From positions 1-25,272 of the forward strand of contig JBFRWI010000178.1 of NCBI GenBank assembly GCA_051439505.1: DNA of 25,272 nt, in the 5' to 3' direction. Numbering within the stretch: the stretch's first letter is position 1; each line of letters opens with the position of its first letter. Position numbers and translations under genes: made by a program. Of the stretch, positions 2,383 through 3,410 are shown one piece after another. This DNA comes from Hormoscilla sp. Its GTDB lineage: Bacteria; Cyanobacteriota; Cyanobacteriia; Cyanobacteriales; Desertifilaceae. The notes beneath the pieces are model-generated. The model did no database searches, was not told where the DNA came from, and was given only the letters and a program-made list of their open reading frames with translations.

Positions 2383-3410
2383 GAGTGTGGTCTTGCGCCC
2401 GTTGGTAGTCGCCCGAACCCTAAAGGGCCCGGCTACACGAACAAAGCCCGCCTGCGCGGGCTATACATACATACATGTACCTGGTCGGGGTCGATCCGGG
2501 GGTCACCCCCCGAACCTCCCATTCGGAACCGTGCTTGCGACTTTCACCGCACACGGCTACTGGGTGCTAGGTCCTTTGTCATGGATAGAATTACTAGGGA
2601 TTTCTCCCGTTGTCCCTTGCCTCATGAAATTTTGCTCCTTGAGGTAGTCGAAAGACCAAATTGAGTACCTAACTCCGGAAGGTTCGCGGGGGAAAATCAG
2701 ATAAACCTCATATACCGCTCTTCACTAACAATTGTCCGTATCTGGGGACTTCCATGTTTTTACCCGGTTAGGATTTTTAGTCCATCATTGCAATCCTAGG
2801 GTTGCCCCTGGCTAGGCACTTATTGAGAGCTACTATCTCCCAAGGCTTCCTAACATCACCGTCCTACGTCTGCATATCCCAGGCATTACCCCGGGCATTG
2901 GCTTCTTAGGACATCCCTCCCCACGTGGTCATGCGCTTCACATCTAACTTATCCTTGCGGATAGAACCACGGGAGTTACTTCGTTCCCAGGTATCATTTC
3001 ACGAAGCCTTTAGGTCTCCCCTATACACCGACAGTCATTTCGGATGCGATATCAGTGAATAGTCAGCACTGATACACGGACTGCACGCGCGTTTTGCACC
3101 AAGCGTATCAGCCTTTTCGCTTGTTGTAGTTAACGATGCTTACAGGGGTTCGCTTGTTCTAACCATGAACTTCTTTCCTAGCGGTGTCGGTCTCTAGGCT
3201 GAGACCTTATCCTACATTTGAGACCTCGCTCAACACCACGGCGATGTTACTCCGCAGCACTGAGGTCCGGTTTCACCCCCGCACCTAGGGGAGGGGAATT
3301 TAACCCCCATGATGACCTGAGTTGTTGAGCTTGCGCCCAACCCGGACTTTACCATTGCTGGCTTATACCGGAACGAATCGCACGGCTATCAACTACTTTT
3401 GACCACACCG
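2383..3410 (-). mobile_element. divergent GGTGTGGTC-family MITE interrupted by the group II intron
   Basis: Minus strand begins CGGTGTGGTCAAAAGTAGTTGATAG (3410) and ends GCAAGACCACACTC (2383). Contains the palindrome AGCCCGCGCAGGCGGGCT. No target duplication found. Confidence 0.55.
2484..3383 (-). ncRNA. ORF-less group IIB intron (900 nt)
   Basis: 5' end GTGCGATTCGTT (3383). Domain V TAGCCGTGTGCGGTGAAAGTCGCAAGCACGGTTC (about 2526-2559) has the AGC triad. Domain VI ends ...GACCCCGAC with the branch A at -8. No RT ORF, only a 22-aa remnant (2557-2625). Confidence 0.93.

What the first reader, a model, noticed from the sequence alone, without database searches (positions are those of the whole stretch)
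2383..3410. ORF-less group IIB intron whose exon-binding sites read the end of a MITE
Seen: the intron (3383 to 2484, minus strand) sits 27 nt inside a GGTGTGGTCAAAA MITE-like end. The 5' exon ends GTAGTT-G-ATAGCC. The intron has AACTAC (3126-3131), a perfect complement of GTAGTT (EBS2/IBS2). The loop of hairpin ATCAGTG-CTGACTATT-CACTGAT offers GACTATT (3058-3064), which pairs with GATAGCC at 6 of 7 positions including one G-U (EBS1/IBS1). Established: group II introns select targets by EBS/IBS pairing, often insert in other mobile DNA, and ORF-less ones can be mobilised in trans. Inference: a non-autonomous retroelement that targets a multicopy non-autonomous DNA element, gaining many harmless landing sites. 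It lies just 3' of the ROCO stop on the same strand, so read-through could transcribe it. The three intron-free copies here have CCCGT rather than GTAGT at the IBS2 position, consistent with subfamily specificity.
Basis: partly seen in the sequence, partly recalled or inferred. Interest (0 to 1): 0.75.

Follow-up and report, generated by a model that had tools for sequence, protein, structure and literature searches.

The report
Protein-less intron in mini-transposon end
A self-splicing-type intron that has lost its own enzyme gene sits in the end of a small jumping element whose sequence it can read by base pairing, a real case of a kind of nested parasite that is already known.

Summary
The intron is real: an ORF-less group IIB2 intron of 901 nt (3383 to 2483, minus strand). 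It is one base longer than reported, so the exon join is GATAGCC|AGGTAC. Covariation across 54 relatives places EBS1, EBS2, EBS2a and EBS3; this copy pairs at 12 of 13 positions. Of 12 perfect targets in the genome, 10 lie in register in ends of an ISKra4-like MITE, so these binding sites do read MITE ends.

The assembly holds only one copy, however, and all 20 best MITE targets are empty. Relatives in four sister genomes number dozens per genome, show 40 different EBS sets, and sit at unrelated sites. Only 2 independent events among 881 intron-start motifs touch a MITE end, against about 1.3 expected by chance. CCCGT versus GTAGT marks the two ends of one element, not subfamilies.

Most likely: retrohoming with a borrowed reverse transcriptase after EBS drift. 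MITE preference is predicted, not shown. Precedents are TeI3 and RmInt2, and this scan has noted the same arrangement in several other genomes. Verdict: new member of a known kind.

The parts
2483..3383 (-). ORF-less group IIB2 intron, 901 nt, GTGCG...CCCCGACC
3384..3410 (-). 5' exon = left 27 nt of the MITE; terminal repeat 3400-3410 (first base C instead of G)
3384..3389 (-). IBS1 (ATAGCC; the ideal partner would be ATAGTC)
   Evidence: covariation
3392..3397 (-). IBS2 (-9 to -13, GTAGT) and IBS2a (-14, A)
3126..3132 (-). EBS2 (3130-3126) and EBS2a (U at 3132)
   Evidence: best-pairing columns for exon -9 to -14 in 23 clusters, scores 0.61-0.87
3059..3065 (-). delta (U at 3065, invariant in 55 of 55; label from known IIB anatomy) and EBS1 GACUAU (3064-3059) in the d3 hairpin loop
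   Evidence: scores 0.74-0.93
3023..3023 (-). EBS3 (U), pairs with IBS3 A at 2482
   Evidence: top column for exon +1, 0.84-0.85
2914..2916 (-). J2/3 GGA; gamma G at 2916 pairs with gamma-prime C at 2483
   Evidence: G-C 47, A-T 6, G-T 1 of 54
2527..2595 (-). possible remnant of the RT C-terminus (IHDKG...PCAVKVASTV, with a stop), running into domain V
   Evidence: weak tblastn, best E 0.049; inconclusive alone
2526..2559 (-). domain V, catalytic triad AGC at 2558-2556
   Evidence: Rfam alignment
2483..2521 (-). domain VI and 3' tail; candidate branch A at 2491, ninth base from the end (inferred)
2383..2482 (-). 3' exon = rest of the MITE, with a palindrome (terminator-like, 2462-2445) and a degenerate right terminal repeat at 2383-2393
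3415..6699 (-). upstream LRR-Roc-COR (ROCO) gene; its stop lies 4 nt before the MITE; possible source of read-through

Best explanation
An ORF-less group IIB2 intron of a genus-wide family retrohomed into this site using a reverse transcriptase made by another intron. Shown: intact domain V/VI motifs, no ORF, and target pairing at 12 of 13 covariation-defined positions. Shown for the family: the binding sites change fast (40 EBS sets in 81 copies) and each set pairs with its own flanks. Inferred: this copy's set, reached by such drift, happens to fit one variant of the GTAGTT end of an abundant ISKra4-like MITE, so MITE ends are its best targets and further homing would go mainly there. Inferred: the RNA is made by read-through from the ROCO gene, is bound by a non-cognate RT (the only group II RT found in this assembly is on contig C125), reverse-splices into DNA and is copied to cDNA. 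MITE targeting is a property of this EBS set, seen once, not a family-level strategy.
For: EBS/IBS pairing averages 8.7 of 12 over 40 EBS types against 3.6 in 2000 shuffles, maximum 4.4. An unbiased column scan recovers EBS1, EBS2, EBS2a and EBS3. EBS2a is still paired in this ORF-less family (0.77), which PMC8643678 (passages) ties to RT-driven homing into DNA. There are 12 perfect targets, 10 in terminal-repeat register. Sister genomes hold 49-72 matches each, at varied sites and often inside other introns. MITE-end insertions genus-wide are at chance level, 2 events against about 1.3 expected. The ROCO orthologue in G006 has neither MITE nor intron downstream. An intact 595-aa RT-maturase-HNH ORF exists on C125.
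Against: A 12/13 fit is better than most relatives have at their own sites (8 of 54, this copy included, reach 12 or more), and the one mismatch is removed by a sibling MITE variant, which fits past residence in MITE ends. In run X2 the intron contigs are about five times deeper than the flanks, so more copies may exist at unseen sites. The C125 intron RNA is not similar to this one by blastn at genome level, so its RT is not shown to be the helper. No RNA evidence was obtained.
Confidence: 0.58

Rival explanations
1. An established MITE-homing subfamily: the intron has cycled among MITE ends, and other copies lie in sister strains or were lost from the assembly.
For: 10 of 12 perfect targets are MITE ends, and EBS1 fits the GATAGTC-A variant exactly. 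A sibling 847-nt ORF-less family in G003 sits nine times at one position of a palindromic repeat, so repeat-homing subfamilies do arise. X2 depth hints at several copies.
Against: One copy in the assembly; X1 intron depth is only about 1.2-1.5 times the flank and one contig runs through the 5' junction. All 20 MITE ends scoring 12-13 are empty. No other such junction was found in 401 genomes (three one-mismatch hits in other genera, not inspected further), JGI metagenomes or the GTDB scan. A related intron in run X5 aligns only 14 nt into the exon and not into the terminal repeat (its letters were not seen).
Confidence: 0.3
2. Passenger or rearrangement product: the intron entered a MITE elsewhere and arrived here with it, by transposition or by recombination between MITE copies.
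For: The host copy lacks the 9-bp duplication and has damaged termini. About 1.35 kb present in G006 is missing here. In G004 one intron-in-MITE event was duplicated together with its flanks.
Against: No second intron-bearing MITE exists in the assembly. This rival still needs an original EBS-guided insertion.
Confidence: 0.08
3. Inactive relic that neither splices nor moves any more.
For: Single copy, no RT-bearing intron of the same RNA subtype found in the genome, and a mismatch at IBS1 -2, a position paired at 0.92 in relatives.
Against: Domain V, gamma-gamma-prime and EBS2a/EBS3 pairs are intact. The fold z-score is -2.67 against 20 shuffles. X2 hints at several identical copies.
Confidence: 0.04

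Closest known systems
ORF-less TeI3 introns of Thermosynechococcus elongatus (Mohr et al. 2010, PMC2882425; passages)
   Same: [quoted passage not shown]
   Different: TeI introns are IIB1 and have closely related RT-bearing siblings in the same genome. This one shows IIB2 features, and no RT-bearing intron of its RNA subtype was seen among the loci examined from its genus.
RmInt2 of Sinorhizobium meliloti GR4 (PMC4615759; passages)
   Same: Inserts in the inverted repeats of an insertion sequence (ISRm17); uses a U-A EBS3-IBS3 pair.
   Different: RmInt2 encodes its own protein, has seven copies at such sites and was shown to home. Here there is one ORF-less copy in a non-autonomous element, with no assay.
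Cyanobacterial IIB2 introns, including ORF-less Trichodesmium introns (PMC4649490; PMC8643678; passages)
   Same: GUGCGAUUC start, insertion at the base of domain I, EBS3 and EBS2a present.
   Different: This family ends mostly in AC-C or AC-U with the candidate branch A ninth from the end, whereas the C125 intron ends AAC. I did not find this discussed, which were narrow searches.
ISKra4-family (p-MULT 4) insertion sequences and derived MITEs (PMC3942029; passages)
   Same: The host element shares terminal repeats and 9-bp duplications with a 2439-bp element on C102 that encodes an ISKra4-like transposase.
   Different: The 127-bp host has no transposase, and this copy has damaged ends. The family score of the tested homologue was just under the cut-off.

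Membership tests
group II intron | domain V/VI structure with catalytic triad | tested here: met
   RF00029 47.3 bits, cut-off 40; AGC triad
group II intron | GUGYG 5' end and gamma-gamma-prime pair at the 3' end | tested here: met
   (53 of 54 Watson-Crick, 1 wobble)
group II intron | canonical AY 3' dinucleotide (consensus recalled) | tested here: not met
   ends AC-C; the wider family ends mostly AC-C or AC-U. The boundary is fixed by empty alleles and covariation, so this is a family trait, not a miscall
group II intron | splicing activity and lariat | not testable with these tools
subgroup IIB | EBS1, EBS2 and EBS3 pairings | tested here: met
subgroup IIB2 | GUGCGAUUC start and extra stem-loops at the base of domain I | tested here: met
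   and fold (two hairpins at intron positions about 13-60); features as listed in PMC4649490 and PMC8643678
subgroup IIB1/IIB2 mobile introns | EBS2a-IBS2a pair at -14 | tested here: met
   column 252 is the best partner of -14 (0.77); U-A in this copy
CL2 class (protein-based) | RT phylogeny | not testable with these tools
   the intron has no ORF; no reference RT tree was built
ORF-less introns mobilised in trans (TeI3-like) | no ORF | tested here: met
   longest stop-free stretch 54/59 aa
ORF-less introns mobilised in trans (TeI3-like) | closely related RT-bearing intron in the same genome | tested here: inconclusive
   one group II RT of another RNA subtype on C125; the assembly is 93% complete
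IS-end-homing introns (RmInt2-like) | several independent copies at the same position of the element end | tested here: not met
   one copy; 20 best MITE targets empty; none found elsewhere
IS-end-homing introns (RmInt2-like) | EBS set complementary to the element end | tested here: met
   12 of 13 here, 13 of 13 at eight ends with an intact terminal repeat
ISKra4-derived MITE | terminal inverted repeats and target duplication shared with an autonomous element | tested here: met
   9-bp duplication in 84 of 132; C102 element with the same ends. This particular copy lacks the duplication
ISKra4-derived MITE | partner transposase passes the ISKra4 model | tested here: inconclusive
   homologue from L112 scores 191.5 bits against a cut-off of 205; the G000 protein is 54% identical to it and was not scanned itself

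The most novel reading that the evidence does not exclude
One cyanobacterial genus carries a lineage of ORF-less IIB2 introns with AC-Y ends that has no RT-bearing form of its own, borrows the RT of a different intron subtype, and has reached 100 or more copies per genome by rapid EBS change. It repeatedly throws off subfamilies that lock onto multicopy repeats: ISKra4-MITE ends here, a palindromic repeat in G003. This copy would be the founder or the visible member of a MITE-end subfamily that is multi-copy in sister strains.
Probability: 0.27. Interest if true: 0.55.

Novelty: new member of a known kind. Interest (0 to 1): 0.3.

Why it matters
As a single insertion it adds little: ORF-less introns homing in trans into insertion elements (TeI3 family F4) and introns homing into IS inverted repeats (RmInt2) are published. 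The value lies in the family around it. A review calls bacterial ORF-less introns rare (PMC4424553, passages) and a survey's record was 101 introns per genome (PMC8919778, passages), yet one sister genome has 460 intron-start motifs. Dozens of natural EBS variants with their own target sites form a ready dataset for IIB2 target rules, including EBS2a. If a non-cognate RT moves them, it would be a broad-specificity driver of interest for gene-targeting tools.

Tried and rejected
Subfamily specificity from CCCGT versus GTAGT: rejected, they are the two ends of one element.

3' end at 2484: rejected.

The 19 GTDB hits for 'MITE end + GTGCGA': none continues as an intron start (most read GTGCGATCGC) and none has an Rfam intron match.

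Searches for further copies or junctions that found nothing: the EBS1 hairpin in JGI metagenomes and IMG/VR; the junction in metagenomes. The junction in 401 genomes gave only three one-mismatch hits in other genera, not inspected. Plasmids gave only short matches, at most 8% of the query. Domain I matches at E 1e-25 were confined to the genus, 5 of 301 genomes, with only two candidates scored per genome. The same EBS2 context gave 11 hits; besides this intron only one lay in an intron, of the other subtype and with another EBS1. My EBS1-context pattern did not even match this intron, so it is uninformative.

CRISPR-DR28 hit at 2440-2463: this is the MITE's internal palindrome, single here and common in the genome's repeats; not taken as an array.

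An early guess that EBS3 lay just after the EBS1 hairpin was not supported; the whole-alignment scan put it at intron position 361. The terminal-repeat flag was off by one base and was redone. Minimum-energy folds do not reproduce domain VI, so the branch A is inferred only.

A control that scans this genome with the relatives' EBS sets was not obtained, so how often a random family member would favour MITE ends stays open. PMC4853749 (passages) concerns a group I intron carrying a MITE and does not bear on this. No supplements were read; intron tables in those of PMC8919778 and PMC8643678 could already list this family.

Full report
Observation. The minus strand carries a group II intron. Rfam Intron_gpII scores 47.3 bits at 2561-2484, a domain I model scores 29.2 bits, under its cut-off, and the intron starts GTGCGATTCG at 3383. 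No stop-free stretch exceeds 59 codons. The surrounding genes (psbD-like ORF, ROCO gene) indicate a cyanobacterium; that label is my reading. The intron is single-copy in the 6.47-Mb, 93% complete assembly. The only other Rfam domain V/VI match is an RT-bearing intron on C125.

Boundaries. In 71 related 3' ends the next base was always C or T. It covaries with gamma: G-C 47, A-T 6, G-T 1 of 54. Empty copies of the host element at C70, C135 and C208 read GATAGCC-AGGTAC, with two C's. Three relatives inserted in a gene that I recognise from memory as a pyrophosphatase keep its frame only if that base is intronic (read by eye). The intron is therefore 901 nt (3383-2483) and ends CCCCGACC.

Exon-binding sites. 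Related introns were found in all four same-genus genomes, 49-72 matches each at 68-89% identity. I fetched 60 of those regions in addition to the returned loci. Of 97 aligned starts I dropped 16 as other subtype, truncated or interrupted. The other 81 fall into 40 EBS types, which pair with their own exons at 8.7 of 12 positions against 3.6 in 2000 shuffles. A scan of every alignment column against every exon position, using 54 un-nested ORF-less introns in 23 clusters (this copy being one cluster), recovers EBS1 at 3064-3059, EBS2 at 3130-3126, EBS2a at 3132 and EBS3 at 3023. This matches the 5-bp EBS2 and -14 EBS2a of PMC8643678 (passages), which states that ORF-less introns keep EBS2a while under selection for mobility in trans. 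This copy pairs at 12 of 13 positions, with an A.C mismatch at -2. Eight of the 54 reach 12 or more.

Host element. GGTGTGGTCA occurs 523 times in the genome. There are 144 inward-facing pairs, mostly 100-200 bp apart, and 84 of 132 short ones have a 9-bp target duplication. A 2439-bp element on C102 has the same ends and a transposase 54% identical to a protein that scores 191.5 bits (cut-off 205) on the ISKra4 model. The host copy (2383-3410, 127 bp when empty) has damaged termini and no duplication. In G006 the ROCO orthologue is followed by about 1.35 kb of other sequence, with no MITE or intron.

Is the MITE the target? For: on the 13 positions the genome has 12 perfect sites, against about 0.19 expected at equal base frequencies. 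[quoted passage not shown] Of 42 sites scoring 12, 16 are in register. In G003 an 847-nt ORF-less sibling sits nine times at one position of a palindromic repeat and at least twice elsewhere, so repeat-homing subfamilies exist. In run X2 three intron contigs have depth 646-719 against 129-147 for flanking contigs, with no differences from the window. The tool warns that contig depth is not a copy number, and their flanks were not shown.

Against: only 20 of 756 terminal-repeat starts score 12-13, and all are empty. In X1 the intron is at 270-276 against 182-232, and one contig crosses the 5' junction. One of 98 starts examined had the MITE end upstream. Genus-wide, 3 of 881 start motifs (4, 141, 107, 169 and 460 per genome, all intron subtypes and a few chance matches) lie 8-38 nt behind the repeat core. 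Two of these are one duplicated, truncated event at another end type. About 1.3 are expected using this genome's repeat density (rough). No second junction of this kind was found. A relative in run X5 aligns 14 nt into the exon and then stops, which is ambiguous.

Helper. Five RT-model matches exist in G000; only C125 passes the group II cut-off, and the full-length ORFs inspected at two others look like other RT types. Among 30 plus 12 RT loci examined (a subset of some 270 matches), the 3' ends I could parse in this genus were nearly all of the TTAGTTTAAY type, none was of the CGACCCC type, and several were not parsed. The only RT-bearing intron with this intron's domain V/VI type was in another genus (L009/L187, 98% identical over 47 nt). 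The helper is therefore inferred to be non-cognate, as shown experimentally for TeI3 introns (PMC2882425, passages). Transcription by read-through is plausible: the ROCO stop is 4 nt upstream of the MITE, and the only minus-strand terminator-like site found lies after the intron. There is no RNA evidence.

Comparison and verdict. It works like TeI3 (ORF-less, EBS-diverged families, one of them in an IS) and like RmInt2 (IS inverted repeats; PMC4615759, passages). It meets the tested features of an ORF-less IIB2 intron, apart from the AY end. It does not meet the multi-copy criterion for a demonstrated element-end-homing intron. Earlier notes of this scan describe the same arrangement in other genomes; these are unchecked AI notes, and I used them only as leads to the two papers. 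Searches pairing group II intron with MITE and cyanobacteria or with ISKra4 listed no paper on this element, judged from listings and from passages of two papers. Verdict: new member of a known kind, interest 0.3.

Noticed in passing
G006, G005, G003, G004 (whole genomes): Intron-start motif counts are 460, 169, 141 and 107 (reverse controls 0-4), with 112, 11, 57 and 84 RT-model matches. G006 would exceed the record of 101 introns per genome in PMC8919778 if most motifs are real introns. G000 has only two introns.
   Followed up: partly
L096-L099 and L199-L204 (G003): An 847-nt ORF-less sibling is inserted nine times at one position of a palindromic repeat, including three head-to-tail copies on C40. 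The same repeat occurs 194 times in G000, including window 7461-7530 and near 14449-14571.
   Followed up: partly
family alignment, L004-L088: The ORF-less family ends mostly AC-C or AC-U (also UCC, GCC), so the penultimate base is C and the candidate branch A is ninth from the end; the last base covaries with gamma.
   Followed up: partly
L006-L008: A family member interrupts a gene that looks like inorganic pyrophosphatase at the same site in three genomes, and L008 has a second one further into the gene; efficient splicing would be needed.
   Followed up: no
L044-L046, L064, L077, L079: Many nested (twintron-like) and tandem insertions of these introns in other introns.
   Followed up: no
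window 1827-2307: A damaged duplicate of the tRNA-Phe gene (1466-1538) is interrupted by a composite MITE (1848-2246) with the 9-bp duplication CGCCGGGAT and lacks the anticodon region; another MITE lies at 1668-1816.
   Followed up: partly
G000:C125, L003 3983-6375: An RT-HNH group II intron interrupts a TnpB-like ORF in frame; a second intact copy of such an ORF lies about 3 kb away. The TnpB label is recalled, not tested.
   Followed up: no
genome-wide MITE copies: The same terminal repeats enclose several unrelated internal palindromes, which suggests repeated capture of other short repeats by the MITE.
   Followed up: no
L156 / L166 (G000:C165) and L151 (G000:C213): Two non-intron reverse-transcriptase-like ORFs of 518 and 476 codons, possibly defence-type.
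   Followed up: no
window 16419-18756 and 14583-16409: Two ATP-grasp-like ORFs next to an ABC transporter, resembling a microviridin-type peptide cluster (label recalled).
   Followed up: no
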